64,000 nt of DNA from Wocania sp. (lineage in GTDB: Bacteria; Bacteroidota; Bacteroidia; Flavobacteriales; Flavobacteriaceae). How positions within the stretch are numbered: position 1 is the first letter of the stretch; each line of letters begins with the position of its first letter. Location of the stretch: NCBI GenBank assembly GCA_965224845.1, contig CBDDAJ010000036.1:32724-96723 (forward strand), in the 5' to 3' direction. This document shows positions 9,154 through 62,354 of this stretch, in pieces. Below the pieces are notes generated by a model that saw only the letters and a list, made by a program, of their open reading frames with translations, was not told the DNA's origin and searched no databases. Both the position numbers and the translations under genes were made by a program.

Positions 9154-10032
9154 GTGAGCAATATCAATTTAAAATGGGCGTATCTATTTATACTTTCGTT
9201 AGTTTGGGGTAGCTCGTTTATATTAATTAAAAAAGCACTTTTAGGCTTAACCCCATATCAACTGGGGGCTTTAAGAGTTATTATAACAGGTTTGTTTTTA
9301 TTTGCTATAGGATATAAAACTATAAAAACGATAAAACCTAAAGACTGGAAATGGTTAATAATTTCTGGGTTTCTCGGTACTTTTATTCCAGCTTTTTTCT
9401 TTGCTATTGCAGAAACCGAAATAGATAGCGCAGTAGTTTCTATTTTAAATTCGTTAGTACCTTTAAATACTATTTTGTTAGGCTTCGCCATTTTTAAAAT
9501 AACTTCAACAAAACGACAAATACTAGGTGTAATTGTTGGCTTTATTGGAACCGCGATATTAATTTTAAAAGGGGCTCATTTAAACCCTAATCAAAATTAC
9601 TTATATGCCATTTTTGTTATGCTGTCTACCATCATGTATGCTATCAATGTTAATATAATAAAGAAGCATTTGCAACATGTAAAACCATTAACTATAGCAA
9701 CAGGTAATTTTGCAGCCATAGTTATTCCTGGTGTTATAGTGTTATTGTTTACAGATTTCTTTTCAAAAACAACATTTAATAATCCTAATTTTAAAATGGC
9801 AATGGTATACATTACTATTTTATCCCTTTTTGGTACAGCTATAGCAAAAATATTGTTTAATAAGTTAGTCCATCTTTCAACACCGGTTTTCGCTTCGTCT
9901 GTTACTTATATTATGCCAGTTGTAGCTTTAATGTGGGGGTTTATTGATGGTGAAAGCTTTAGTTTTCTACAAGGCTTGGCCAGCTTAATTATCTTATTTG
10001 GTGTCTATTTATCTCATAAACGAAACGGATAA
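9154..10032 (+). CDS. EamA/DMT-superfamily transporter
   Basis: 292 aa, about 10 TM segments. Two EamA-like halves. Confidence 0.7.
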   Translation: MSNINLKWAYLFILSLVWGSSFILIKKALLGLTPYQLGALRVIITGLFLFAIGYKTIKTIKPKDWKWLIISGFLGTFIPAFFFAIAETEIDSAVVSILNSLVPLNTILLGFAIFKITSTKRQILGVIVGFIGTAILILKGAHLNPNQNYLYAIFVMLSTIMYAINVNIIKKHLQHVKPLTIATGNFAAIVIPGVIVLLFTDFFSKTTFNNPNFKMAMVYITILSLFGTAIAKILFNKLVHLSTPVFASSVTYIMPVVALMWGFIDGESFSFLQGLASLIILFGVYLSHKRNG

Positions 10033-14106: not shown

Positions 14107-16284
14107 AAACTCTAACCTATAATTCATTTTAAAAGCTACTCCCCAATCGCTTCGGGCAATCGCATCATTATAGTTATCTGTTACTACCAAATAAACATAA
14201 GACAAAGGCTTGTATTCCCATTGTAATCGGCTATTTAAATTAAAGTTATCACTTTGCGTATTATACTGTATGTAGGTCGTCCAATTCAATCTGTTATTAA
14301 AAAATATTTCTCCAGTAAATCGGGCCAAATGGAAGGTTTCTTTGCCTAACACTCCTAAATCTAATGTATTAATATCATAAGCTGCTTCTAAATTAGCGAA
14401 TGGCATGAGTTGATAGTTTAAATACATCCCTCCGGTAATACGCCTTCCACTATAATAATTTCCCTTTTGAATATTGAATCGATATCTCAATTTTTGATTA
14501 TTGGCGGAGTTATACCCTACTTTTAAAAGCCCAAAATTATACTTGCCTGGTTGTAATGCATTTCCATTTCTTAATGGATCAAAACCATATTTAAGATCTA
14601 CATAATCATAATTAAACACAAAATAAACTGCTGATAAATTTTTAAAAAAAACAGCAGCATTATAAAAATGAGAAGATTGAGATAAGGTTCCTTTTTCATC
14701 AAAATAATTATTATTTTCATAATTGATAAAACGAATATTATTCAGCGATTTAGACTTATCGTAAAACTTCTCATACTCAACTCCAACTGAAGTTTGCGTA
14801 TACCCTTCTCTTACAACAATATCATTAATAGCATCGTAATTAAAAAGCCGCGGTGTAAAACCAACATCTGTAATATAGTTTTTACCTACATTTCTAACTG
14901 AGGCATTCCACCCTAAACCTCTTTTATTGAACCAGATTCCTGCATTATAAAAATTATTTTCTCCTGAAGCATTATCATTAAAACTAGTTCCAAAATTTAC
15001 TAAACCTATCCATTTGTTATTATTAGATTTATAATTTACATTCAACCCTGTAACACGATTATAATTATCTACAAATTCAAATGTATCTGTTTCTTGTCTA
15101 TTAATTAAAAAGCCTGTTGTAGAAAAATTTTCAGACAGCTGTTGCTCTATTACTAAAGCGCCAAAATTTTGAGAAGTGATGCCTTCTTCTTTATTAGTTT
15201 GTACATTTAAAACTCCCAATCGGGTTTTAGAAGACACATTACCAGATAGTTTTAATCCAAATTGAACATCGCTATTAGCCCCAATTCTTCTAGAATAAAA
15301 TGGGTTTATTCCATCAACACCCAAATTAGAAAACAAATCAGAATTCTCTAAGAAGAAATTTCTGCGCTCTGGAAAAAAAATTGAAAACCTGGTTAAGTTA
15401 GTCACTTGCTGATCTACATCAATTTGTGAAAAATCAGGATTTATAGTAGCATCTAACTTTAAGGAAGAGGTTACATTATATTGCGCATCTAAACTAGGCT
15501 TAATTGTAGTTTCGTCGGTGTCTTTAATAACATTATTTTGATAATTAACAGTTAAAGATGGGGTTACTGCAAATTTTGAACTAGATTTATTTGGCAGGTT
15601 TTCAACTGAAAACTTTTCGGTAAAACGCAAATCAAATAGTCTATAATTGCGTTTCACGTTTTTAAGAATTGTCCAAGAATTCTTTTTAATATCTCGCACA
15701 TAAAACTGGATTCCAAAAACAGCATTTTCAGCATTAAAGTTTAAAGCCTTTAACGGAATGGCGACTTCATAAACTTTAGTATTATCGTTTATATTGGTTT
15801 TTGCTTCCCAAACAGCATTCCAACTTGTTGCAAAATCATAACCTCCATTAATTTTCTCAACAATACCATCTATAAGGGCTCCAAAAGCATTAACAGAAAA
15901 GTAATAGGCGCTTTGTTCTTGGTTTTGCGTGTCTAAAATCATAACAAAACCATCGCTTAATCCTATTGGGATATCTCTTTTTAAAGAGCTTACTTGAGAT
16001 TTTTCTTGAGTATCAAAATAACTAAGGCCTATATATAAATGCTCTTTATTATGAAATAATTTAACTTCTGTTTGATTTTCTGCTAGGCCTTCATCGTTTG
16101 GCGCATAGTTATAAAAACCCGTATGCTTCGATACTTGTTGCCAAACGGATTCATTTAACTGGCCATCGATATCCATTTTAGCATTAATAAATTTAACAGC
16201 AGGTTTTTGAGCATAAACATTAAACCCTGCAAAGAGCAAAAAAACAAATATATACTTCATATTATTTATGAGATGCTTCGTCAA
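14104..16284 (-). CDS. Large secreted beta-rich outer-membrane-type protein (DUF5916/CBM9-like family)
   Basis: Signal peptide. 726 aa rich in N/Y/G/F with alternating beta-strand pattern. C-terminal aromatic residue (…YRLEF). Confidence 0.45.
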   Translation of the reverse strand: MTKHLINNMKYIFVFLLFAGFNVYAQKPAVKFINAKMDIDGQLNESVWQQVSKHTGFYNYAPNDEGLAENQTEVKLFHNKEHLYIGLSYFDTQEKSQVSSLKRDIPIGLSDGFVMILDTQNQEQSAYYFSVNAFGALIDGIVEKINGGYDFATSWNAVWEAKTNINDNTKVYEVAIPLKALNFNAENAVFGIQFYVRDIKKNSWTILKNVKRNYRLFDLRFTEKFSVENLPNKSSSKFAVTPSLTVNYQNNVIKDTDETTIKPSLDAQYNVTSSLKLDATINPDFSQIDVDQQVTNLTRFSIFFPERRNFFLENSDLFSNLGVDGINPFYSRRIGANSDVQFGLKLSGNVSSKTRLGVLNVQTNKEEGITSQNFGALVIEQQLSENFSTTGFLINRQETDTFEFVDNYNRVTGLNVNYKSNNNKWIGLVNFGTSFNDNASGENNFYNAGIWFNKRGLGWNASVRNVGKNYITDVGFTPRLFNYDAINDIVVREGYTQTSVGVEYEKFYDKSKSLNNIRFINYENNNYFDEKGTLSQSSHFYNAAVFFKNLSAVYFVFNYDYVDLKYGFDPLRNGNALQPGKYNFGLLKVGYNSANNQKLRYRFNIQKGNYYSGRRITGGMYLNYQLMPFANLEAAYDINTLDLGVLGKETFHLARFTGEIFFNNRLNWTTYIQYNTQSDNFNLNSRLQWEYKPLSYVYLVVTDNYNDAIARSDWGVAFKMNYRLEF

Positions 16285-51264: not shown

Positions 51265-51294
51265 AAATTAATCTGATATTATTTATAACCTTAA

Positions 51295-51386
51295 ATACAA
51301 AAGCTATGATTTATATGTCATAGCTTTTGTTTGTTTTGCTTACTCAATATGGCACCCGACACAGTCGAGCGCTAGCGGGGTTCAAT
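51295..51386. repeat. Junction module copy a: 13-bp-stem hairpin (acaaaagctatga..tcatagcttttgt) plus GC-rich box GGCACCCGACACAGTCGAGCGCTAGCGGGG; marks the island/core boundary
   Basis: Read directly. Same bipartite module recurs at 51645-51763/53174-53212, 53786-53909 and 56575-56695/58106-58148. Confidence 0.8.
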
Positions 51387-51398
51387 TTTTGATATCAA

Positions 51399-51644
51399 CT
51401 AATTTGGACGGTGACCGTTAAGACTATCTTTATTTACCATATTAATACTATCTAATTTTACTTTAATAGAGTCTACTATATTAATATTTTTCTTCTTCAA
51501 ATCAGACTTAATTTCCTGAACAGCTTCAATTGTTTTAACTGAAGCTTTTCCAAACCCAACACTTGCATTATAATAAAAAAATGCTGTTGCTATTAACAAT
51601 AAAACAAATAGCGATATTAATATAATTTTATTTTTTTTCATCAT
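51399..51644 (-). CDS. Small (81 aa) signal-peptide/TM protein; reading frame is open upstream into an rhs-derived YIYDATGVKLKKIVS segment
   Basis: ORF track. Hand translation of the upstream minus strand gives ...SYNISHIYDATGVKLKKIVS directly in frame before MMKKNK. Confidence 0.4.
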   Translation of the reverse strand: MMKKNKIILISLFVLLLIATAFFYYNASVGFGKASVKTIEAVQEIKSDLKKKNINIVDSIKVKLDSINMVNKDSLNGHRPN

Positions 51645-51763
51645 GCTTACTATTTTTTTAAGCTTAACACCAGTGGCATCGTAAATATGAGAAATATTAT
51701 AACTATATGAAATACAAAAGCTACTCTAGTTTTTAGAATAGCTTTTGTTTATTTTGCTTACTC
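51645..51763. repeat. Junction module copy b, hairpin half plus rhs-derived segment (interrupted by IS at 51764)
   Basis: gcttactatttttttaagcttaacaccagtggcatcgtaaat...acaaaagctactctagtttttagaatagcttttgtttattttgcttaCTC. Confidence 0.75.
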
Positions 51764-51802
51764 TGTCTTGTCCTGAAATAGGTTTACACAAAAGTGTAAC
51801 AA

Positions 51803-52180
51803 ATGGAAAGATATACTAAGACATCTTCATCAAAATTTCAAAATAGATATAGTGAAGAGTTCAAACAATTTTTATGTAATGAATTTCTAACGGGAACTGC
51901 AACTAGAAAATCAATCGAAAAGAAGTATAATATAGGTAATAACCAATTGACTGTTTGGTTAAAGAAATTAGGATATGACTATTCAAAACCCAGTATTGTA
52001 CCTTTGCCCTCAATGGCAAATCAACCGGACAAATTATCAAATAAAGAAAAAAACTCTTTATCTCAATTAGAGAAGGAACTTGTAGAAGCTCGATTATTAG
52101 CTGAAACTTATAGGAAAATGATTGAAATTGCAGAGAATGAATTTAAAATAAAGATTGTAAAAAAGTCCAATACCAAGTAA
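51803..52180 (+). CDS. IS3-family transposase OrfA (HTH)
   Basis: 125 aa. HTH plus leucine-zipper-like C-terminus. Slippery AAAAAAG near the 3-prime end. Confidence 0.9.
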   Translation: MERYTKTSSSKFQNRYSEEFKQFLCNEFLTGTATRKSIEKKYNIGNNQLTVWLKKLGYDYSKPSIVPLPSMANQPDKLSNKEKNSLSQLEKELVEARLLAETYRKMIEIAENEFKIKIVKKSNTK

Positions 52181-52188
52181 TCCAAGAG

Positions 52189-53100
52189 ATGAAAAACCTA
52201 TATCCAAAGGTAAGCTTAGGCAGGTTCTGCCGATTACTTGGTGTTACCCGTCAAGCATATTATCAACATTTTTGGTATCGTGAACAATTATCTTTTGAAG
52301 AAGATTTAATTGTGTCCGAAGTACATAAGATTAGAAAAAATCATCGCCATATGGGAGGCAGAAAACTATATGAACTATTACAACCATTTTTATTAGCACA
52401 TCAAATAAAAATGGGAAGAGATCGGCTATTCGATATTTTATCAGCTAATTATCTTTTGGTTAGACGTAAAAAGAAACAAACAATAACTACAAATTCTTTC
52501 CATAGGTTTAAGAAATATTCAAACCTGATTAAGAAGTTTATTCCTGATAAACCAAATCAATTATGGGTAAGTGATATCACATATTGGAAAATCGAAACTG
52601 GTTTTGTTTATATTAGTTTTATAACAGATGCTTATTCTAGAAAAATTGTCGGTTATCATTTAGCTGATAGTTTAATGACCTCAGAGACAATCAAAGCATT
52701 ACAGATGGCAATATTCAATCTACCAGAAGGCTTAATAGATAAGTCTAAATTGATACATCATTCAGATAGAGGAACTCAGTATTGTAGTAACGAATATGTA
52801 AAATTGTTGCAAACCAATAACATTGAAATTAGTATGGCTGAAAACGGTGACCCGCTAGAAAATGCAATTGCAGAACGGGTTAATGGAATTATTAAGGAAG
52901 AATATCTCAACGATTATCAATTAGAGAATATAAAAACAGCTAAAGAATTACTTGATACTGTTGTTAATCTATATAATAATGAAAGACCACATATGAGCAT
53001 AGGTAATCTTACTCCTAATCAAGTACATCAAAACAATATAAAAATCGAAAAACTATGGAAAAATTATTATCTAAAAAGCCCTATTATTGTAAACCGATAA
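52189..53100 (+). CDS. IS3-family transposase OrfB (DDE/rve integrase core; expressed as OrfAB by -1 frameshift)
   Basis: Candidate DDE residues in WVSDITY, HSDRGTQY and the ...ENAIAERVNG region. Confidence 0.9.
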   Translation: MKNLYPKVSLGRFCRLLGVTRQAYYQHFWYREQLSFEEDLIVSEVHKIRKNHRHMGGRKLYELLQPFLLAHQIKMGRDRLFDILSANYLLVRRKKKQTITTNSFHRFKKYSNLIKKFIPDKPNQLWVSDITYWKIETGFVYISFITDAYSRKIVGYHLADSLMTSETIKALQMAIFNLPEGLIDKSKLIHHSDRGTQYCSNEYVKLLQTNNIEISMAENGDPLENAIAERVNGIIKEEYLNDYQLENIKTAKELLDTVVNLYNNERPHMSIGNLTPNQVHQNNIKIEKLWKNYYLKSPIIVNR

Positions 53101-53173
53101 TAGGACTAAGAATGAATTGTAAACCTATTTTAGGATTAATGTAAAACATGTAAACTTTTTTTAGGACGAGACA

Positions 53174-53212
53174 CTCATAACGGCACCCGTCACAGACGAG
53201 CGCTAGCGGGGG
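53174..53212. repeat. Junction module copy b, box half (variant GGCACCCGTCACAGACGAGCGCTAGCGGGGG)
   Basis: Directly abuts the IS right end after the CTC duplication. Confidence 0.75.
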
Positions 53213-53785: not shown

Positions 53786-53909
53786 GCATCGTAAATGTAA
53801 GAAATATTATAACTATATGAAATACAAAAGCTACTCTAGTTTTTAGAATAGCTTTTGTTTATTTTGCCTACTCATAACGGCACCCGACACAGTCGAGCGC
53901 TAGCAGGTG
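53786..53909. repeat. Junction module copy c, uninterrupted (rhs-derived segment + hairpin + ttattttgcctaCTCataac + box GGCACCCGACACAGTCGAGCGCTAGCAGG)
   Basis: Shows the unoccupied IS target: ...ctactc|ataacggcaccc.... Confidence 0.8.
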
Positions 53910-54754: not shown

Positions 54755-54903
54755 CAAAAACAAAAAACGAGCGCACATATTGTACACTCGTTTCTTTTCT
54801 TAGTTTAAATATTATACAGTTTATTATTTACTTACTTTATTTCATTACCATATCATTTTATGGTGTGTGTGGATATGGAATGGATTATTTATGCGTTTGG
54901 GTT
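54755..54903. repeat. Conserved about 150-bp 3-prime cassette tail A (about 90% identical to 58256-58415), containing a bidirectional terminator aacgagcgcacatattgtacactcgtt
   Basis: Read directly; aligned by eye to copy B. Confidence 0.75.
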
Positions 54904-54905
54904 CT

Positions 54906-55241
54906 CTATTTACATTTCTCTATTCCTAAAATCTTATATAAATTTCTTTTCGAAATAAATACTTCTTTGTTTTTAACAAACAAATCTTCATCAATATAGA
55001 AAACAAGAGTGTCTTCTTCTTTGATAGCCTTTATGCTATAAGTAGTATTATATTTTAAATAAACATCATTGAGTTTAGAGTTTTTAATCGCTCTCTCAAA
55101 TTGATTAATTGTCTTTTCATCATCAATTCTTTTTTGAAAAGTATCACACCCATAAATTTCAAGTGCTATAAATTCATTTTTAATATAATTATTACAATTA
55201 GAAAATAGAAATACAATTAGTAATGTTAAATATAGTCTCAT
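54906..55241 (-). CDS. Putative immunity lipoprotein (111 aa) for the orphan Rhs toxin tip
   Basis: Lipobox LFSNC. Immediately (1 nt) downstream of the orphan rhs-CT ORF. Confidence 0.5.
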   Translation of the reverse strand: MRLYLTLLIVFLFSNCNNYIKNEFIALEIYGCDTFQKRIDDEKTINQFERAIKNSKLNDVYLKYNTTYSIKAIKEEDTLVFYIDEDLFVKNKEVFISKRNLYKILGIEKCK

Positions 55242-56369
55242 TTAATCCATTTTTATTTTATCAAACCACGTCAAGCTTTTTGTTTTTTCATCGTGTACTT
55301 TTTGTGCGCTCTTATTAACTTTTTCGCCAGGGTCTACTATTACAGTTGAGCCTTTAATTCTTCCCAAATCTCTAAAGAGTTTTGTTTGCGTTCTAACAGT
55401 TTTTTTTCTGTCTTTATAATCAATAACAGATTCTTTACCAAAGCTATCAAGTTTTTTAGGAAAAGCTCTCATGCAAAAATCTGAACAATTGTTATCAATA
55501 AAATTATAAAATTCTGTTCCTTCTTTTTGTTCTAGTAACTTTTTAGCTTTTTCATCATATTTACCAGATGTTTTTATTTGAATAGCTCCGTCAAATGATG
55601 AAATACCCTTTATAGAATTATTCTTTATATCTTCCAATGTTACTCCCTCTTGAATGCCTACATCTCCTTTTACTGTTTTGTTAAAAGATTTTAATGAAAT
55701 TCTATTATCACGTCCACCTGCTGGTGAAAAATCGTATAGAGTATATGTTCCATCTTCAATATAATTACCATCTTTATCCTCTAAATAGTTTCCTTCATCA
55801 TCTTTTTTGTAATTTGAAACCGCTAAAGCCGCATGTCCAACATCTTCTCTTCCTTCTCCTGGCAACCAAATAATCAAAATAACATCATTACCATCTGGGT
55901 CAATGACATTAATTGGATTGTTAATGGCATAATTGTATGGAGATTTATCAAAATGATTTTCAGATAATAAATCTAAATTCATCCACCTGCCCAAAGCAGC
56001 ATCATAATTCCTAGCAGTTACATCATACCAGCCTAATCCTAACTCATCCTGATACTCCTTACCACCAAACTTATACTTAAGCGCTGGACTCGTAGAATTA
56101 ACCACCGTATTATACCCTTTATGTTTAAGTCCAAAGGGATAGTAGTTGTTTTCTTCCAGGATTTCAGAAGTTGTTATAACACCATTATTGTTATTATCCT
56201 TATAACTCAACCTTATATTCCCTAAATGGTCTTTATATTGATATACATAGCTATAACTGCTCCCATTAACATCTACATAGCCTTCCGGGTGGGAATACTG
56301 TATATTCCTTAAAATACCACTATTAAAACGCCCCTTTTCACCCCATACTTTAAAATAAAAAGAAGCCAT
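55242..56369 (-). CDS. Orphan Rhs C-terminal cassette: end of RHS core plus distinct about 200-aa toxin domain
   Basis: Region HPEGYVDVNGSSYSYVYQYKDHLGNIRLSYKDNNNNGVITTSEILEENNYYPFGLKHKGYN is near-identical to the main RHS protein, followed by ARNYDAALGRW...NNPINVIDPDGN and a unique C-terminus. Confidence 0.75.
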   Translation of the reverse strand: MASFYFKVWGEKGRFNSGILRNIQYSHPEGYVDVNGSSYSYVYQYKDHLGNIRLSYKDNNNNGVITTSEILEENNYYPFGLKHKGYNTVVNSTSPALKYKFGGKEYQDELGLGWYDVTARNYDAALGRWMNLDLLSENHFDKSPYNYAINNPINVIDPDGNDVILIIWLPGEGREDVGHAALAVSNYKKDDEGNYLEDKDGNYIEDGTYTLYDFSPAGGRDNRISLKSFNKTVKGDVGIQEGVTLEDIKNNSIKGISSFDGAIQIKTSGKYDEKAKKLLEQKEGTEFYNFIDNNCSDFCMRAFPKKLDSFGKESVIDYKDRKKTVRTQTKLFRDLGRIKGSTVIVDPGEKVNKSAQKVHDEKTKSLTWFDKIKMD

Positions 56370-56692
56370 AGCTACAGCTATGCTTTAGTTTTCTTTTTCG
56401 CCTGAGGCAAAAATCATTCGTTTTTATTACATGCCATTTTAAGCAATATCCAGTATACAGAATTTCAATGAACCGTTTTACTCACACCATTCTATTTGAT
56501 AAATAAGTGTTCGTGAACCTCATTTTATTTCGGTTTCGTATACATAATTGCCTACATAATCAGTTGTTGCTCCCGTGCTTACTATTTTTTTAAGCTTAAC
56601 ACCAGTGGCATCGTAAATGTAAGAAATATTATAACTTTATAAAACACAAAAGCTACTCTAGTTTTTAGAATAGCTTTTGTTTATTTTGCTTA
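56370..56692 (-). pseudogene. Degenerate 5-prime remnant of the orphan rhs cassette (YIYDATGVKLKKIVSTGATTDYVGNYVYE then stop and insertions)
   Basis: Hand translation. Nucleotide similarity to main rhs at 59690-59830 is interrupted by stop and inserted segments. Confidence 0.6.
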
Positions 56693-56695
56693 CTC
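56575..56695. repeat. Junction module copy d, hairpin half (interrupted by IS copy 2 at 56696)
   Basis: Identical hairpin and ttattttgcttaCTC as copy b. Confidence 0.75.
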
Positions 56696-56734
56696 TGTCT
56701 TGTCCTGAAATAGGTTTACACAAAAGTGTAACAA

Positions 56735-57112
56735 ATGGAAAGATATACTAAGACATCTTCATCAAAATTTCAAAATAGATATAGTGAAGAGTTCAAACAA
56801 TTTTTATGTAATGAATTTCTAACGGGAACTGCAACTAGAAAATCAATCGAAAAGAAGTATAATATAGGTAATAACCAATTGACTGTTTGGTTAAAGAAAT
56901 TAGGATATGACTATTCAAAACCCAGTATTGTACCTTTGCCCTCAATGGCAAATCAACCGGACAAATTATCAAATAAAGAAAAAAACTCTTTATCTCAATT
57001 AGAGAAGGAACTTGTAGAAGCTCGATTATTAGCTGAAACTTATAGGAAAATGATTGAAATTGCAGAGAATGAATTTAAAATAAAGATTGTAAAAAAGTCC
57101 AATACCAAGTAA
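56735..57112 (+). CDS. IS3-family transposase OrfA (copy 2)
   Basis: Protein identical to 51803..52180. Confidence 0.9.
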   Translation: MERYTKTSSSKFQNRYSEEFKQFLCNEFLTGTATRKSIEKKYNIGNNQLTVWLKKLGYDYSKPSIVPLPSMANQPDKLSNKEKNSLSQLEKELVEARLLAETYRKMIEIAENEFKIKIVKKSNTK

Positions 57113-57120
57113 TCCAAGAG

Positions 57121-58032
57121 ATGAAAAACCTATATCCAAAGGTAAGCTTAGGCAGGTTCTGCCGATTACTTGGTGTTACCCGTCAAGCATATTATCAACA
57201 TTTTTGGTATCGTGAACAATTATCTTTTGAAGAAGATTTAATTGTGTCCGAAGTACATAAGATTAGAAAAAATCATCGCCATATGGGAGGCAGAAAACTA
57301 TATGAACTATTACAACCATTTTTATTAGCACATCAAATAAAAATGGGAAGAGATCGGCTATTCGATATTTTATCAGCTAATTATCTTTTGGTTAGACGTA
57401 AAAAGAAACAAACAATAACTACAAATTCTTTCCATAGGTTTAAGAAATATTCAAACCTGATTAAGAAGTTTATTCCTGATAAACCAAATCAATTATGGGT
57501 AAGTGATATCACATATTGGAAAATCGAAACTGGTTTTGTTTATATTAGTTTTATAACAGATGCTTATTCTAGAAAAATTGTCGGTTATCATTTAGCTGAT
57601 AGTTTAATGACCTCAGAGACAATCAAAGCATTACAGATGGCAATATTCAATCTACCAGAAGGCTTAATAGATAAGTCTAAATTGATACATCATTCAGATA
57701 GAGGAACTCAGTATTGTAGTAACGAATATGTAAAATTGTTGCAAACCAATAACATTGAAATTAGTATGGCTGAAAACGGTGACCCGCTAGAAAATGCAAT
57801 TGCAGAACGGGTTAATGGAATTATTAAGGAAGAATATCTCAACGATTATCAATTAGAGAATATAAAAACAGCTAAAGAATTACTTGATACTGTTGTTAAT
57901 CTATATAATAATGAAAGACCACATATGAGCATAGGTAATCTTACTCCTAATCAAGTACATCAAAACAATATAAAAATCGAAAAACTATGGAAAAATTATT
58001 ATCTAAAAAGCCCTATTATTGTAAACCGATAA
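57121..58032 (+). CDS. IS3-family transposase OrfB (copy 2)
   Basis: Protein identical to 52189..53100. Confidence 0.9.
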   Translation: MKNLYPKVSLGRFCRLLGVTRQAYYQHFWYREQLSFEEDLIVSEVHKIRKNHRHMGGRKLYELLQPFLLAHQIKMGRDRLFDILSANYLLVRRKKKQTITTNSFHRFKKYSNLIKKFIPDKPNQLWVSDITYWKIETGFVYISFITDAYSRKIVGYHLADSLMTSETIKALQMAIFNLPEGLIDKSKLIHHSDRGTQYCSNEYVKLLQTNNIEISMAENGDPLENAIAERVNGIIKEEYLNDYQLENIKTAKELLDTVVNLYNNERPHMSIGNLTPNQVHQNNIKIEKLWKNYYLKSPIIVNR

Positions 58033-58105
58033 TAGGACTAAGAATGAATTGTAAACCTATTTTAGGATTAATGTAAAACATGTAAACTTTTTTTAGGACG
58101 AGACA

Positions 58106-58148
58106 CTCATAACGGCACCCGTCACAGACGAGCGCTAGCAGGTTATTC
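58106..58148. repeat. Junction module copy d, box half (variant GGCACCCGTCACAGACGAGCGCTAGCAGG)
   Basis: Abuts the IS copy 2 right end. Confidence 0.75.
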
Positions 58149-58255
58149 AAAACAATGTCTTAGTTGATTTAGACATGAACAACTTAAACATTCCTTTCAT
58201 TAATCATGAAGGTTGATACATCTTTACACGTTTGGTAGTTAGCTTAAATCACTCC

Positions 58256-58415
58256 ACAAAACAAAAAACGAGCGCACATTAAGTACACTCGTTTTCTTTT
58301 CTTAGTTTAATATATTATACAGTTATTTACTTATCTTACTTTATTTCATTTACCATATCTAGTGATGTGTGTGGATATGGAATGGATTATTTATGCGTTT
58401 GGGTTAATAAATAAA
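58256..58415. repeat. Conserved 3-prime cassette tail B (pairs with 54755-54903) with bidirectional terminator
   Basis: Aligned by eye; about 90% identity over about 150 bp. Confidence 0.75.
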
Positions 58416-58434: not shown

Positions 58435-58752
58435 CTATTTTGTATGACCAAACCTTATAACTTTACAGTCTGATTTTTGAATCTCAATAAATGGAACACC
58501 ACCAACATCGTAATTTAAAGTCCCTTCTACTAACCATACTTTGTCATCTTCTATTGACCTAGCCTTTAAAGGTAAGCTTTCATCGATTCTTTCTCCATAA
58601 ACTGAATAAAGAAGGGTACTTGCAACTTTAAGAGCGACTTGTTCATCATCAACAATACCTTTTTTTTCATTATTAGAGTTTCCTGCTTGAAATGATAAAC
58701 ACAGAATTGTCAAAATAAATACAACACTTAAAATCTTTAGATTAAATTTCAT
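58435..58752 (-). CDS. Putative immunity lipoprotein (105 aa) for the main Rhs toxin
   Basis: Lipobox (LTILCLSFQAG). 11 nt downstream of the RHS stop. Confidence 0.5.
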   Translation of the reverse strand: MKFNLKILSVVFILTILCLSFQAGNSNNEKKGIVDDEQVALKVASTLLYSVYGERIDESLPLKARSIEDDKVWLVEGTLNYDVGGVPFIEIQKSDCKVIRFGHTK

Positions 58753-58763
58753 TATTACAATTT

Positions 58764-61700
58764 TTATAATTTCTCTTCTTCTATCCCTTTTGGTTCTAGG
58801 TTATTAACTGGTTCTACTTTTTCTCTACTCCCATCAGGATTAATATTATTTACCCTTACAGGCGAATTGGGGTCACTAGGAACATTTGTTGAAACTATGG
58901 TTACTTTTCCAGTTATAGGGTCTATTTTTTGAACAGTTCCACTTGGTGTAACAACATAAGTCGGCAATCCAATTTCCTTAGTTCTTTCTACATCGTTATA
59001 AGATGGCTCATTATCAGCATCCGTCTCTCCCTCAATAGTTTCCTTTTCATCATTTCCGTGAGTATGAATATCTCCTGAAGGCTCACTACCTTTCGGAATT
59101 GAGCTTTCATCTGGGATAAAAGCACCAGCCTCACTACCTATTAACGGTTCAACATAGGAATATGTTGTTTCGCCATTTTTTGTAGTAGAATAGAAAATAG
59201 AAGCATACTCTCTTTTACTTGTTATTGAAACTCCATTATATTGTTTTCCAAAATTTACTGCTGCATCATCAACAGATTTATGAACAGAATGTGGCTCTAA
59301 ACCTTCAAGTTCTCTAGCATCTATGACTCTATTTCCACTAAATACATATGGTCCCCAATCCATATATTCTTCTGTTAATGGGTCTATTGTCATAAATCTA
59401 CCAATTGCTGGGTCGTGATTTCTCCATTTAAATTGTATCCAGTTTAACCCTAACTCATTTTGTTCTTCTTGCTCTTGGAATCCATACGGATGGTCTGTAC
59501 CATTTATAACATTGTTATACCCTTTATGTTTCAGTCCAAATGGATAGTAGTTGTTTTCTTCCAGGATTTCAGAAGTTGTTATAACACCATTATTGTTATT
59601 ATCCTTATAACTCAACCTTATATTCCCTAAATGGTCTTTGTATTGATATACATAGCTATAACTGCTCCCATTAACATCTACATAACCTTCCGGGTGATTA
59701 AAGAATTTCAAAGAACCGCCTTCGTATACATAATTGCCTGCATAATCAGTGGTAGTTGATGTACTACTATTGTTATACACAAGCTTTCTCAGTTTTATGC
59801 CTGTGGCATCATAAATATACTTAATTTTTTTGTTATTATTGTTATCAAATTTTACTTCATCAGGAAGATTTAAATGGTTATAGCTAACCCCATTAACTGA
59901 GGCAGTACCAATGCCCTTATTCAAGTCTTTAACCATATTGCCGTTAGCATCATAAGTGTATTCTGTGGTTGTATTAGAGCCATCTTTAAAGCCATAAGTA
60001 TCATTTCCATTATCTAATACTTTTTTAAGCCTATTACTATTGGTTTCATAGGTATAAACCAGATTGTCCATCACCCCAAAACTTGTAGCTCCACTATTGG
60101 TATGTCCTCTTCTCTGTAAATCAGTGATGTTTCCATTCTTATCATAGGCAACCGAGGTTAGGTTATAATTACTGGTATTCCCCGTAGCTCCTGTAATTCT
60201 ATTTAAAGCATCGTAAGTATATTTATACCACTTTAAGCCCTGGTCTGTGTTTTTGGTCTTCCACTCGGTCTCAGAGATATTGCCGTTATACAAAGGGGTA
60301 CCGCTATGACTAACTGTATTGTAATTTATTTTAAAACTAAATAAATCTGTTCCTAAGCTTGATGGATCATTTATTTGTTTAAGCCAGCCGCGAACATTAT
60401 AAGCGTAATTTACAGTTTGTAAGCGATTAGCATGAGATGATTTACCACCTACCCCTTTACTTTCTAACTGGCCTAAATTGTTGTAAACATTATCAACAAT
60501 GGTTTCCTGTTCTAAACTGTTTAGGGTTTGTTTTTGTCTTAACAGCCTGCCTTCATGGTCGTAAACAAAAACATCTCGTGTTGTAATGCTGGTTTGCCCG
60601 GTTTTAGAATGTGTGGTTTTTGTTTTATCAACTTTACCCACAAAATCCAGTTTGCTCTCTACAATGTCTGTTGTTTGTAAATAATCATTAATAGTTTTTA
60701 TATAAATAGGGCGTCCTTTTACATCATATCCTGTTATGGTGGTAATCCACTTTGCAGGGTTAGAGTTATCTAATACTCGTACTTTACTTCCTGTAGCCAG
60801 ACCTTTGGTTAATTTTTGAGTAGCACTCGCATTATTGTAATTAATAACCGCCTGCCCCTCGATACTGGAAGGCAGATTTGTAAATCCATTAAAGGAATAA
60901 TTATCATAATAGTTAATAGTATATACTTTTGATATGTTCGTTTTTGGATACACCAGATTATCATTACTGTAATATATATTAGCGCCTCCTAAACTAACAG
61001 ATGTACTGCTTTTAGTTACATATTGCAATGCCGTGGTATTTGCAGCATTTTGTAAAAAGGTTCTGCTAGAGTTAGTCGTTACAAGTCCGGTATAGGCTAC
61101 CCTTCCAAAAGCATCATATTTAGTGAATAGCCACGCATTGGTTGACGGGACACGTTGGTTAGCATCTTGTGTCATTATAGGCTGATCTAGCTTATTATAT
61201 ACTATATATTCACAGCCTTTACCCGGTATTTTCTTTTCTACCAGACGGTTTCTTTTATCGTAGGTATACTGATAGCACAAGGCATTAAGTTCTGAGGTGG
61301 TTGGTTTATCTGTTGTCGCTTCTGATTTTGGGGGCAATACAAAACTTAAGTTCCCATAATCATCATATACATAATAGGTGTCGTGCGCTACATTGGTTTG
61401 TGTTACACCATTTACTTTTGAGGTACCATAGCTGCGTTTTAAAATAACGCGCCCTTGCTTGTCTTTAAATTCTTCGGTGGTATTTGCTGTTCCGCTAGTC
61501 CAATTCTCATCTTTAGTAATGGTTTTATAAAGGGTACCAGCCTTATAATATCCGCCATCTACTGCTGTGTTTAAGATCAAAGCAGGCGTGTAGGTAGTCA
61601 CTCCATTTGTTGTGGCAGCACTTAAGTTTACTTCATAACGTCTTATCGTGTTTGCTGTGTTGGTTTGGTAATCAAACTTAATTTCTTTTCCGCCACCCAG

Positions 61701-62354
61701 TTTCCAATCTTTTCCCGGAGCGGCTTGTTTTAATACCCTGTTAAGTGGTGAGGCTTCAAACGCTTTTTGAGCATAGGCATTAATATTGTTTAGGACCACT
61801 GACGGAAAATCTGTAGCATAATTGGATAAATAATACTGTTTGGTTGCTGTAGCTTTATTTCCACGATAGGCGCCAATATTTCCCGTGGCTTCCATATAGG
61901 GAAGCCAGTCCTTATCGGGTCTTCCGTAAGTATCATAATCGATATGGGTAATAATATCTTTTTTGCCCGGTGCAGATTTAATCCCTATATTTTGCATGGG
62001 CCTGCCCAGGCCATCAAAATAAGTAATTTGCTCTATAACATCGCCTTCTTTAGCAGTAGCAGAATTAAAGCTCGTCATAGGTTTTTGATAGCGTCGTGTA
62101 AATACATAATTTTCATTACTAAACGTCATAGAGGTATAGGGGTCTGTTGCTGTTGTTGGTTCTATAATTTGAGCGGTAAAGGTACTACCGCTTTTTATCC
62201 ATGTATTGGGTTTTAATGTAATACTATGGGTCGCTATTAAGGTTTCTGTTCCGGTTACCGTATAGGCATTTTCTTTAACTATAGTTGTTGGTGTTTGTGC
62301 AATAACTATTTGAGCTAACAGCAAAAAGGCTATGGTATATATATATTGTTTCAT
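58764..62354 (-). CDS. RHS/YD-repeat protein (1196 aa) with Sec signal peptide, RHS repeat-associated core and polymorphic C-terminal toxin domain
   Basis: Signal peptide MKQYIYTIAFLLLAQIVIAQT. Many YD repeats (YxYDxxGR/N). Core end WRNHDPAIGRFMTIDP. Unique C-terminal about 190 aa. Confidence 0.85.
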   Translation of the reverse strand: MKQYIYTIAFLLLAQIVIAQTPTTIVKENAYTVTGTETLIATHSITLKPNTWIKSGSTFTAQIIEPTTATDPYTSMTFSNENYVFTRRYQKPMTSFNSATAKEGDVIEQITYFDGLGRPMQNIGIKSAPGKKDIITHIDYDTYGRPDKDWLPYMEATGNIGAYRGNKATATKQYYLSNYATDFPSVVLNNINAYAQKAFEASPLNRVLKQAAPGKDWKLGGGKEIKFDYQTNTANTIRRYEVNLSAATTNGVTTYTPALILNTAVDGGYYKAGTLYKTITKDENWTSGTANTTEEFKDKQGRVILKRSYGTSKVNGVTQTNVAHDTYYVYDDYGNLSFVLPPKSEATTDKPTTSELNALCYQYTYDKRNRLVEKKIPGKGCEYIVYNKLDQPIMTQDANQRVPSTNAWLFTKYDAFGRVAYTGLVTTNSSRTFLQNAANTTALQYVTKSSTSVSLGGANIYYSNDNLVYPKTNISKVYTINYYDNYSFNGFTNLPSSIEGQAVINYNNASATQKLTKGLATGSKVRVLDNSNPAKWITTITGYDVKGRPIYIKTINDYLQTTDIVESKLDFVGKVDKTKTTHSKTGQTSITTRDVFVYDHEGRLLRQKQTLNSLEQETIVDNVYNNLGQLESKGVGGKSSHANRLQTVNYAYNVRGWLKQINDPSSLGTDLFSFKINYNTVSHSGTPLYNGNISETEWKTKNTDQGLKWYKYTYDALNRITGATGNTSNYNLTSVAYDKNGNITDLQRRGHTNSGATSFGVMDNLVYTYETNSNRLKKVLDNGNDTYGFKDGSNTTTEYTYDANGNMVKDLNKGIGTASVNGVSYNHLNLPDEVKFDNNNNKKIKYIYDATGIKLRKLVYNNSSTSTTTDYAGNYVYEGGSLKFFNHPEGYVDVNGSSYSYVYQYKDHLGNIRLSYKDNNNNGVITTSEILEENNYYPFGLKHKGYNNVINGTDHPYGFQEQEEQNELGLNWIQFKWRNHDPAIGRFMTIDPLTEEYMDWGPYVFSGNRVIDARELEGLEPHSVHKSVDDAAVNFGKQYNGVSITSKREYASIFYSTTKNGETTYSYVEPLIGSEAGAFIPDESSIPKGSEPSGDIHTHGNDEKETIEGETDADNEPSYNDVERTKEIGLPTYVVTPSGTVQKIDPITGKVTIVSTNVPSDPNSPVRVNNINPDGSREKVEPVNNLEPKGIEEEKL

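What the first reader, a model, noticed from the sequence alone, without database searches (positions are those of the whole stretch)
54755..58415. Both immunity genes are followed by the same about 150-bp conserved tail ending in a bidirectional terminator
54755-54903 and 58256-58415 are about 90% identical. They include the hairpin aacgagcgcacat..gtacactcgtt flanked by T-runs on both strands and a conserved gtgtgtgtggatatggaatggattatttatgcgtttgggtt segment, even though the immunity genes themselves are unrelated. A conserved non-coding 3-prime tail shared by otherwise unrelated toxin/immunity cassettes suggests it is the downstream homology arm used for cassette exchange. The YIYDATG region would be the upstream arm.
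Basis: seen in the sequence. Interest (0 to 1): 0.5.

Follow-up and report, generated by a model that had tools for sequence, protein, structure and literature searches.

The report
Conserved RNA-like tail ending Rhs toxin cassettes
Each of two unrelated toxin/immunity cassettes in a flavobacterial Rhs toxin locus ends in the same ~147-base non-coding tail, which folds into hairpins plus a transcription terminator on the toxin-gene strand and marks the fixed downstream edge of the swappable cassette; this refines a known kind of toxin-gene array and is not a new system.

Summary
Tails 54757-54903 and 58258-58405 are 89% identical, with sharp edges. They start 2 and 29 nt after the stops of two unrelated immunity genes. 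They lie on the minus strand, like the rhs genes.

The same tail occurs once each in Jejuia spongiicola and an uncultured Flaviramulus, again right after the last gene of an Rhs cluster with different toxins. It is absent from 75 other Rhs-linked loci and from metagenome contigs. It co-occurs with a high-identity upstream arm (YIYDATG...KHKGYN).

Jejuia and Flaviramulus are 88% colinear upstream. Their arm is 92-98% identical, the cassette is unrelated, the tail is 87% identical, and nothing matches beyond it. So arm and tail bound a replaceable cassette.

Conservation inside the tail is patchy. A 32-nt 5' block is 97% identical between lineages and the terminator 71-91%, but the AT-rich middle is only 42-48%. 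The fold is significant only on the rhs-sense strand. I read the tail as a functional 3' RNA end that also serves as homology.

The terminator is not really bidirectional. Recombination through the tail is inferred, not shown. Other flavobacterial arrays carry their own repeated tails.

The parts
58258..58405 (-). Tail copy 2, the non-coding 3' end of the main rhs-immunity unit. It starts 29 nt after the stop of the Imm-NTF2-2 gene.
   Evidence: covariance model 150.5 bits
54757..54903 (-). Tail copy 1, the non-coding 3' end of the orphan CT/immunity module. It starts 2 nt after the stop of ORF 54906-55241.
   Evidence: covariance model 169.1 bits
54872..54903 (-). Conserved 5' block of tail 1 (AACCCAAACGCAUAAAUAAUCCAUUCCAUAUC). 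Its first ~21 nt are predicted single-stranded. The same block in tail 2 is 58374-58405.
   Evidence: 97% identical between lineages; unpaired in all four folds
54848..54878 (-). Hairpin 1 of tail 1: CCAUAUC / GAUAUGG stem with a CA-rich loop of 14-18 nt. In tail 2 it is 58353-58380.
   Evidence: Stem sequence kept in all four copies while loop length varies
54762..54796 (-). Intrinsic-terminator hairpin plus U-run of tail 1. In tail 2 it is 58263-58297.
   Evidence: one G-C to A-U compensatory change in L002; sense -20.5 vs antisense -8.7 kcal/mol
59514..59819 (-). Upstream arm in the main rhs gene: codons 846-947, YIYDATG to KHKGYN.
   Evidence: 59515-59696 is 97.8% identical to orphan 56110-56291. 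It is 91% identical to L002 and 87-92% to L014, against 66-68% for the gene body. Third-codon-position identity is raised.
56097..56636 (-). Upstream arm of the orphan module. It starts at NISYIYDATG (about 56636) and is interrupted by a ~240-nt insertion at 56293-56534.
58764..62354 (-). Main Rhs protein, 1196 aa: DUF6443 N-terminal domain, YD/RHS repeats, DUF4329 C-terminal toxin.
58435..58752 (-). Immunity gene 1 (Imm-NTF2-2 family, lipoprotein-like).
   Evidence: E=1.1e-15
55242..56369 (-). Orphan rhs fragment with a different C-terminal toxin. No Pfam match. Its ATG lies inside the insertion.
54906..55241 (-). Putative immunity gene 2 (111 aa, lipoprotein-like, no family match). Its role is inferred from position only.
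56696..58105 (+). IS3-family insertion sequence between tail 2 and the orphan arm. It has 25-nt terminal inverted repeats and a 3-bp CTC target duplication, and sits inside a REP-like element. The second copy is 51764-53173.
53786..53907 (-). Empty-site copy of the junction [REP-like element + hairpin + first 28 nt of the arm (NISYIYDA)]. The same junction occurs at 56576-56695/58106-58142 and at 51644-51763/53174-53210.
   Evidence: 95-97% identical

Best explanation
The tail is the conserved, structured 3' untranslated end of the Rhs toxin-immunity transcription unit in one lineage of Flavobacteriaceae Rhs loci. Read on the rhs strand it has four parts: a sequence-invariant single-stranded block, a small hairpin with a CA-rich loop, an AT-rich spacer or hairpin, and a strong intrinsic terminator.

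It is the fixed downstream boundary of the variable CT/immunity cassette. The YIYDATG...KHKGYN stretch of the rhs core is the fixed upstream boundary.

The window has two tails because the array is built of repeated modules [arm - CT - immunity - tail]. The orphan module kept its own tail.

Shown here: the anatomy, the strand-specific fold, conservation across three genera, co-occurrence with the arm, and unrelated cassettes between the two boundaries.

Inferred: as direct repeats of about 150 nt (tails, 89%) and about 180 nt (arms, 98%), the two boundaries let RecA-type recombination replace, delete or duplicate whole modules among close relatives. An arm-arm crossover (offset 3405 nt, in frame) would fuse the main Rhs body to the orphan toxin. 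The patchy conservation implies that the block, hairpin and terminator are kept for an RNA-level role, such as termination, 3'-end stability or regulation. Their use as homology would be a consequence of that, not the cause.
For: - Two copies with sharp edges lie right after unrelated immunity genes.
- The same element was found in L014 (Jejuia spongiicola, 15009-15150) and L002 (uncultured Flaviramulus, 14990-15133). It starts 16 and 10 nt after the last ORF of the Rhs cluster, in the same orientation, with other toxins and immunity genes.
- The covariance model gives only these four hits at 139-169 bits; the next best is 29 bits, in 1.39 Mb.
- The rhs-sense RNA folds with z = -5.3, -3.8, -6.3 and -7.4 (0 of 200 shuffles each) into the same layout. 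Antisense z is -1.0 to -1.6.
- Terminator energy is -19 to -22 kcal/mol on the sense strand and -8 to -13 on the antisense strand. Compensatory changes are seen.
- Between-lineage identity by segment: block 97%, hairpin-1 3' arm 100%, middle 42-48%, terminator 71-91%.
- The arm is 87-96% identical in DNA to L002 and L014 only, and 84% or less in the other loci. Those are the two loci that carry the tail.
- Third-position identity in the arm is 0.73 (L002) and 0.66 (L014), against 0.55 and 0.52 in the body (p=0.002 and 0.016). It peaks at 0.81-0.84.
- L014 vs L002: 88% colinear over 12 kb, arm 92-98%, cassette unrelated, tail 86.8%, no homology downstream.
- The junction REP-like + hairpin + arm start is repeated three times at 95-97%, which shows that modules were copied as units.
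- Other arrays (L050, L062, L035, L010) have their own repeated non-coding tails with terminators directly after each module.
Against: - No recombination breakpoint inside a tail was demonstrated.
- There are only four copies, from two independent lineages, so the covariation support is thin.
- There are no transcription data.
- The tail is absent from the closest Rhs relatives by protein identity: 63% (L071, L075), Jejuia pallidilutea (L072/L073) and Flaviramulus sp. BrNp1-15 (L074). It is therefore not needed for cassette turnover in general.
- Part of the raised DNA identity of the arm comes from strong amino-acid conservation.
- The rest of the source genome could not be searched, so copies unrelated to Rhs cannot be excluded.
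Confidence: 0.6

Rival explanations
1. The tail is a self-standing regulatory RNA element: either a small RNA processed from the 3' UTR or a cis-acting stability/regulatory element. Its conserved single-stranded block would pair with a target or bind a protein. Its place at the cassette edge would be incidental to recombination.
For: The fold is strand-specific and significant, and the 5' block is unpaired and invariant across genera while the spacer is saturated. This layout (seed, hairpins, terminator) is typical of 3'-UTR-derived small RNAs; that comparison rests on my own knowledge. In L002 and L014 the block can pair at -22 kcal/mol with codons ~48-60 of the rhs ORF, and 0 of 60 shuffled seeds reach that value.
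Against: No conserved promoter is possible upstream, because the sequence there differs in every copy. No equivalent target site exists in the window. No Rfam family matches. There are no expression data. This rival does not explain why the element duplicates with each module, but it is compatible with the best explanation.
Confidence: 0.25
2. The two tails are neutral leftovers of a local segmental duplication. They have no function beyond a terminator that was copied along.
For: The array clearly underwent segmental duplication. A 1567-bp unit (IS3 plus flanks) is repeated at 99.6%, and a junction is repeated three times.
Against: The genes between the repeats are unrelated. The tail is kept in two other genera at the same place. 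Its conservation is patchy, with blocks at 97-100% next to a saturated spacer, which neutral decay does not give.
Confidence: 0.07
3. The tail is a site for a site-specific recombinase, in the manner of an integron attC site, which inserts or excises cassettes.
For: It sits at the 3' end of each cassette. It contains an imperfect hairpin with a bulged base and a loop of variable length. A truncated tyrosine-recombinase ORF lies about 450 nt beyond the tail in L014.
Against: No integrase is in or near the array in the window; the only recombinases there are the IS3 transposases. No paired RYYYAAC/GTTRRRY boxes are seen in the sequence. Each orphan module also carries a piece of the rhs core, which fits homologous exchange and not precise site-specific exchange. 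The hairpin asymmetry favours the transcribed strand.
Confidence: 0.04
4. The tail is a small mobile repeat (MITE or REP-type) that happens to have landed twice in this array.
For: The same array is rich in a genuine REP-like repeat and in IS copies.
Against: It has no terminal inverted repeats and no target duplication. It always has the same orientation and sits 2-29 nt after the last cassette ORF. No further copy exists in the other 60 kb of the window or in 1.39 Mb of related loci. None was found in metagenome contigs.
Confidence: 0.04

Closest known systems
Rhs orphan arrays formed by 'C-terminal displacement' (Poole et al. 2011, PMC3150448; Koskiniemi et al. 2014, PMC3967940; Steele et al. 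2017, PMC5727410)
   Same: A full-length rhs gene with its immunity gene is followed by a truncated rhs fragment. The fragment keeps the end of the conserved core, a different toxin end and its own immunity gene. The core-end repeat (182 nt, 98%, in frame) would allow the orphan toxin to be recruited by recombination.
   Different: The passages of PMC5727410 that I read describe only the conserved core as the recombination substrate. The other two papers were seen only as search listings. Here each module also ends in a conserved, structured non-coding tail shared across genera. In addition, the module-to-module junction is itself repeated. The Rhs here is the Bacteroidota type, with a DUF6443 N-terminal domain.
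Vibrio cholerae T6SS effector-immunity displacement arrays (Kirchberger et al. 2017, PMC5361080)
   Same: New effector/immunity modules are added at a conserved upstream anchor and old immunity genes are kept downstream. [quoted passage not shown]
   Different: That model uses homology on one side plus illegitimate joining. It found no specific integration sites and did not characterise the downstream region. Here the downstream region is a defined ~147-nt element with a strand-specific RNA fold and sharp edges, present after every complete module.
Intrinsic (Rho-independent) terminators and structured 3' UTRs that give rise to small RNAs
   Same: A GC-containing stem is followed by a U-run on the coding strand and preceded by further hairpins and an unpaired conserved stretch.
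   Different: No evidence of processing, of a target or of a binding protein. No Rfam family matches.
Integron gene cassettes with attC sites
   Same: A variable ORF is followed by a repeated, hairpin-forming element at the 3' end of each unit of an array.
   Different: There is no integrase and no attC box pattern. The units carry a coding homology arm at their 5' end. The resemblance is in layout only.

Membership tests
Rhs polymorphic-toxin locus with orphan CT/immunity module | Large protein with YD/RHS repeats and a variable C-terminal toxin after the conserved core end | tested here: met
   DUF6443 E=2e-43 and DUF4329 toxin E=9e-16. RHS_repeat scores 20.7 bits, just under its cut-off of 22, but the upstream partner ORF scores 33.6 bits. 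4542 homologues, many named RHS repeat-associated.
Rhs polymorphic-toxin locus with orphan CT/immunity module | Immunity gene directly downstream of the toxin end | tested here: met
   Imm-NTF2-2 E=1.1e-15, 12 nt after the rhs stop
Rhs polymorphic-toxin locus with orphan CT/immunity module | Downstream fragment that shares the core end with the main gene but lacks the N-terminal part and carries a different toxin end | tested here: met
   182 nt at 97.8%. The toxin ends are unrelated beyond the core motif.
Rhs polymorphic-toxin locus with orphan CT/immunity module | The orphan's own immunity gene protects against the orphan toxin | not testable with these tools
   The 111-aa ORF 54906-55241 abuts the orphan stop and has no family match. 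Its role is inferred from position.
Intrinsic terminator | Stable stem-loop followed by a U-run on the transcribed strand | tested here: met
   -18.7 to -21.9 kcal/mol on the rhs-sense strand in all four copies, followed by UUUUUU
   The antisense stem has two C.A mismatches, -7.8 to -13.0 kcal/mol. The scan did not call it on the plus strand. Termination itself was not measured.
Homology arm for RecA-mediated cassette exchange | Conserved sequence on both sides of unrelated cassettes in several genomes | tested here: met
   Four different cassettes lie between arm and tail in three genomes
Homology arm for RecA-mediated cassette exchange | Recombination breakpoints mapped inside the arm | not testable with these tools
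   This needs many genomes of one species. The source genome and its close relatives were not retrievable.
Known RNA family (Rfam 15) | Match to a curated covariance model | tested here: not met
   Only a chance-level hit: L20_leader, 22.4 bits against a gathering score of 58.7, E=0.89
Integron attC site | Paired R''/R' boxes (RYYYAAC ... GTTRRRY) and a linked integron integrase | tested here: not met
   No such paired boxes in the aligned copies (by inspection). No integrase among the window ORFs of the array.
MITE / REP-type mobile repeat | Terminal inverted repeats or dispersed multi-copy distribution | tested here: not met
   No terminal inverted repeats. Only Rhs-linked copies in the window plus 1.39 Mb of loci. 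Whole genomes were not searchable.

The most novel reading that the evidence does not exclude
The tail is a previously undescribed structured RNA family dedicated to Rhs toxin-immunity operons of Flavobacteriaceae. It would be a 3'-UTR element or a 3'-UTR-derived small RNA. Its invariant single-stranded block would act in a sequence-specific way, for example by pairing with the 5' part of the rhs message as the -22 kcal/mol match in Jejuia/Flaviramulus hints, to control toxin or immunity expression. More generally, lineage-specific tails of this kind would be a standard third component of flavobacterial Rhs modules.
Probability: 0.2. Interest if true: 0.6.

Novelty: new variant of a known kind. 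Interest (0 to 1): 0.4.

Why it matters
Arrays of Rhs and other polymorphic toxins are usually explained with a single conserved anchor, the core end, plus illegitimate joining. This locus shows modules bounded on both sides: by a coding arm and by a conserved, structured non-coding tail.

The tail is kept across genera while everything between and beyond it changes. Several other flavobacterial arrays have tails of their own.

This supports a 'copy a module, then replace its cargo between two arms' route to toxin diversity. It also nominates a small RNA element that may control expression of the toxin/immunity pair. Both ideas can be tested with population genomes and with 3'-end RNA mapping.

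The gain is a refinement of a known system, not a new one.

Tried and rejected
- **Exact-pattern scans for the tail.** The 23-mer in GTDB representative genomes gave 0 hits. The 29-mer in JGI metagenome contigs gave 0 hits. The 21-mer gave 3 hits that match only over the pattern, i.e. by chance.
- **Retrieving the source contig or close strains by exact protein look-up.** This failed for both immunity proteins, for the main Rhs (P0001) and for P0002. The rest of the source genome therefore could not be scanned.
- **Searching relatives for the tail.** Relatives with higher Rhs protein identity (L071, L075), Jejuia pallidilutea (L072/L073), Flaviramulus sp. BrNp1-15 (L074), and loci with the same toxin/immunity families (L079, L080) all lack the tail.
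- **Coding potential.** The sense frames differ between copies by frameshifts. The antisense 'MEWIIYAFG' start is followed by unconserved extensions of 4 to ~80 codons. Rejected as a gene.
- **attC-like site and MITE readings.** Rejected; see the rival explanations.
- **A cis target for the conserved block.** Nothing within 7 mismatches of 26 nt in the window, L002 or L014. Duplex scanning gave a notable site only in L002/L014.
- **Homologues of the window's cassette genes.** Homologues of imm1, imm2, ORF166, ORF170, ORF81 and the main toxin were sought among the first 75 loci and none was found.


Full report
**1. The observation**

- A gap-free repeat search found 54757-54812/58258-58313 and 54861-54903/58363-58405.
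- BLASTN joins them into one 151-column alignment, 54757-54903 vs 58258-58405, at 89.4% identity and E=1.4e-48.
- Similarity begins and ends abruptly on both sides. It ends at 58405, not 58415.

**2. Context**

All relevant genes are on the minus strand. Read 5' to 3' on that strand, the region contains:
- an RHS-repeat ORF (63980-62361);
- the main Rhs protein (62354-58764; DUF6443, YD repeats, DUF4329 toxin);
- an Imm-NTF2-2 immunity gene (58752-58435);
- tail 2 (58405-58258), then 113 nt;
- a REP-like element split by an IS3-family insertion sequence (58105-56696; 25-nt inverted repeats; 3-bp CTC duplication);
- a hairpin;
- an orphan rhs fragment that begins exactly at NISYIYDATG (about 56636) and carries a ~240-nt insertion (56534-56293);
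- the orphan toxin end (to 55242);
- a 111-aa lipoprotein-like ORF (55241-54906);
- tail 1 (54903-54757).

The two immunity proteins are unrelated. The toxin ends share only the last core motif. The tails start 29 and 2 nt after the immunity stop codons.

**3. Copies elsewhere**

The source genome is not in the GTDB representative set, and its contig could not be retrieved. I fetched 70 loci around Rhs relatives and later 10 more: 7 by exact protein look-up and the 3 metagenome pattern hits.

BLASTN, a profile HMM and a covariance model find the tail in exactly two of them:
- L014, Jejuia spongiicola, 15009-15150;
- L002, an uncultured Flaviramulus, 14990-15133.

The covariance-model scores are 139-169 bits for the four copies and 29 bits or less for everything else in 1.39 Mb. 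In both loci the tail has the Rhs orientation. It starts 16 and 10 nt after the last small ORF of the Rhs cluster, and the toxins and immunity genes there differ again. JGI metagenome contigs hold no copy.

**4. Co-occurrence with the upstream arm**

- The coding stretch YIYDATG...KHKGYN (main rhs 59819-59514) is 97.8% identical between the main gene and the orphan over 182 nt.
- It is 91% identical to L002 and 87-96% to L014.
- It is 84% or less, mostly 70-78%, in all other loci.
- The body of the gene is only 66-68% identical to L002 and L014.
- At codons with the same amino acid, third-position identity is 0.73 and 0.66 in the arm against 0.55 and 0.52 in the body (p=0.002 and 0.016). It peaks at 0.81-0.84.

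So the two loci that carry the tail are the two with a high-identity arm.

**5. A natural cassette swap**

L014 and L002 are colinear at 88% over 12 kb of upstream sequence and Rhs body. The comparison continues as follows:
- arm: 92-98% identical;
- toxin end and immunity genes: no similarity;
- tail: 86.8% identical;
- downstream of the tail: no similarity.

The tail is therefore an isolated island of homology at the 3' edge of the variable cassette.

**6. The nature of the tail**

On the rhs-sense strand all four copies fold into the same layout:
- about 21 unpaired nt (AACCCAAACGCAUAAAUAAUC);
- hairpin 1, CCAUAUC/GAUAUGG, with a CA-rich loop of 14-18 nt;
- a weak AT-rich hairpin;
- a long terminator stem followed by U6-8.

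The z-scores are -5.3, -3.8, -6.3 and -7.4, and no shuffle of 200 folds as well. The opposite strand gives z = -1.0 to -1.6.

The terminator stem contains two G.U pairs that become C.A mismatches on the plus strand. The energies are -18.7 to -21.9 kcal/mol on the sense strand against -7.8 to -13.0 on the antisense strand. The promoter/terminator scan calls it only on the minus strand. One G-C to A-U compensatory change is seen in L002, and three covarying pairs in the AT-rich hairpin.

Between the window lineage and the L014/L002 lineage:
- the 5' block is 97% identical;
- the 3' arm of hairpin 1 is 100% identical;
- the terminator is 71-91% identical;
- the AT-rich middle is 42-48% identical, i.e. 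saturated.

This pattern means long divergence with selection on specific parts. It is not recent transfer of the whole element and not neutral decay of a duplication. No Rfam family matches. No frame is conserved as coding.

**7. How the array was built**

The junction [REP-like element + hairpin + first codons of the arm] occurs three times at 95-97% identity:
- 56695-56576, which leads into the orphan;
- 53907-53786, where only 28 nt of arm remain, followed by a 170-aa lipoprotein ORF;
- 51763-51644, with about 60 nt of arm followed by an 81-aa ORF.

Two of these carry the same IS3 copy at the same site, within a 1567-bp repeat of 99.6% identity. An identical arm truncation point joined to the same sequence three times is not expected from independent illegitimate insertions. 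It indicates that modules were copied as units and then diverged by cargo replacement or deletion.

In that scheme both boundaries are needed for the replacement step. That is the strongest indirect argument that the tail serves as the downstream homology. The main-orphan arm offset is 3405 nt, divisible by three, so an arm-arm crossover would give an in-frame fusion to the orphan toxin.

**8. Generality**

Other flavobacterial arrays with several modules have their own repeated non-coding segments directly after each module's last ORF. Each contains a terminator:
- L050: 14023-14346 and 16674-16859, 94% identical;
- L062: 14862-15254 and 17183-17596, 78%;
- L035: 7433-7572 and 10468-10605, 78%;
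- L010: 13975-14167 and 3134-3321, 86%.

In L050 and L062 the tail abuts the next arm. The layout [arm - CT - immunity - tail] thus looks common, with lineage-specific tail sequences. Loci with the same toxin and immunity families as the main cassette (L079, L080) lack this tail. So the tail goes with the locus lineage and not with the cargo.

**9. Comparison with what is known**

Rhs orphan arrays and C-terminal displacement are well described (search listing: PMC3150448, PMC3967940). The passages of PMC5727410 that I read speak only of recombination between conserved core regions. The Vibrio cholerae displacement model uses one-sided homology plus illegitimate joining, and mentions in passing a short conserved region downstream of effectors (PMC5361080). 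I found no description of a defined, structured 3' tail as a module boundary, but my reading was limited to these papers.

**10. Verdict**

The boundary role and the cassette turnover between two conserved flanks are shown. Recombination through the tail is inferred.
- The tail looks primarily like a functional RNA 3' end, and its terminator is essentially one-directional.
- Novelty: a new variant of a known kind.
- Interest: 0.4.

Noticed in passing
window 56696-58105 and 51764-53173: Two copies of an IS3-family insertion sequence (orfA/orfB, 25-nt inverted repeats, TG..CA ends, 3-bp CTC duplication) sit at the same position inside a REP-like element. Together with 120 nt of left flank and 37 nt of right flank they form a 1567-bp direct repeat of 99.6% identity, 4932 nt apart. 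The site was therefore duplicated after insertion, and this repeat could delete or amplify the segment between the copies.
   Followed up: partly
window 51290-51388, 53174-53210, 53814-53907, 58106-58142; L002 14259-19801 (10 copies); L057 (6 copies); L001, L006, L018, L039, L046, L069: A REP-like repeat (core GGCACCCG.CACAG.CGAGCGCTAGC) is shared across several Flavobacteriaceae genera. In the window it occurs only inside the Rhs array, with 0 copies in the other ~50 kb. In L002 it punctuates the small ORFs downstream of Rhs and flanks an IS200-like/REP-associated Y1 transposase ORF (L002 15653-16225).
   Followed up: partly
window 53786-53813 and 51644-51704: Two further starts of the rhs arm (NISYIYDA...) are cut off after 28 and ~60 nt. 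Each is followed by a small ORF with a signal or membrane segment (170 aa, 53762-53250; 81 aa, 51644-51399). These are probably remnants of older modules that kept only an orphan immunity gene. Neither has a tail. A 166-aa membrane ORF (54659-54159) follows tail 1.
   Followed up: partly
window 56293-56534: A ~240-nt insertion lies inside the orphan's arm, relative to the main gene, L002 and L014. It contains a 16-nt palindrome (CATAGCTGTAGCTATG). The orphan ORF's ATG (56369) lies within it, so the insertion may supply a start codon, and perhaps a promoter, to the orphan toxin.
   Followed up: no
L050 14023-14346/16674-16859; L062 14862-15254/17183-17596; L035 7433-7572/10468-10605; L010 13975-14167/3134-3321: Other Rhs arrays have their own repeated non-coding tails with terminators after each module. 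The tails of L050 and L035 (different genera) both begin with a similar motif: GGTAGTGTTTCAAAGTTAGTGAT and GGTAATGTTTCAGAATTAGTGAT.
   Followed up: partly
L002 about 9891-9930; L014 about 9966-10005: The invariant block of the tail can pair with codons ~48-60 of the rhs ORF (DDGISYAFNNWV) at -22 kcal/mol. None of 60 shuffled seeds reaches this value. There is no counterpart in the window. Because L002 and L014 are close relatives, this is only one independent observation.
   Followed up: partly
L014 12586-13015: The Jejuia spongiicola Rhs gene carries a ~430-nt in-frame insertion (about 143 aa) in the middle of the otherwise conserved arm, between ...LSYK and EILEENNYYPFG. This is an extra domain within the last part of the Rhs core.
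   Followed up: no
L014 15232-16036 and beyond: Directly downstream of the Jejuia tail lie an XRE-type regulator, a truncated tyrosine recombinase, an AAA-ATPase-like ORF and an HNH-like ORF. This looks like an inserted island, so the distal edge of the tail may be an insertion hot spot.
   Followed up: no
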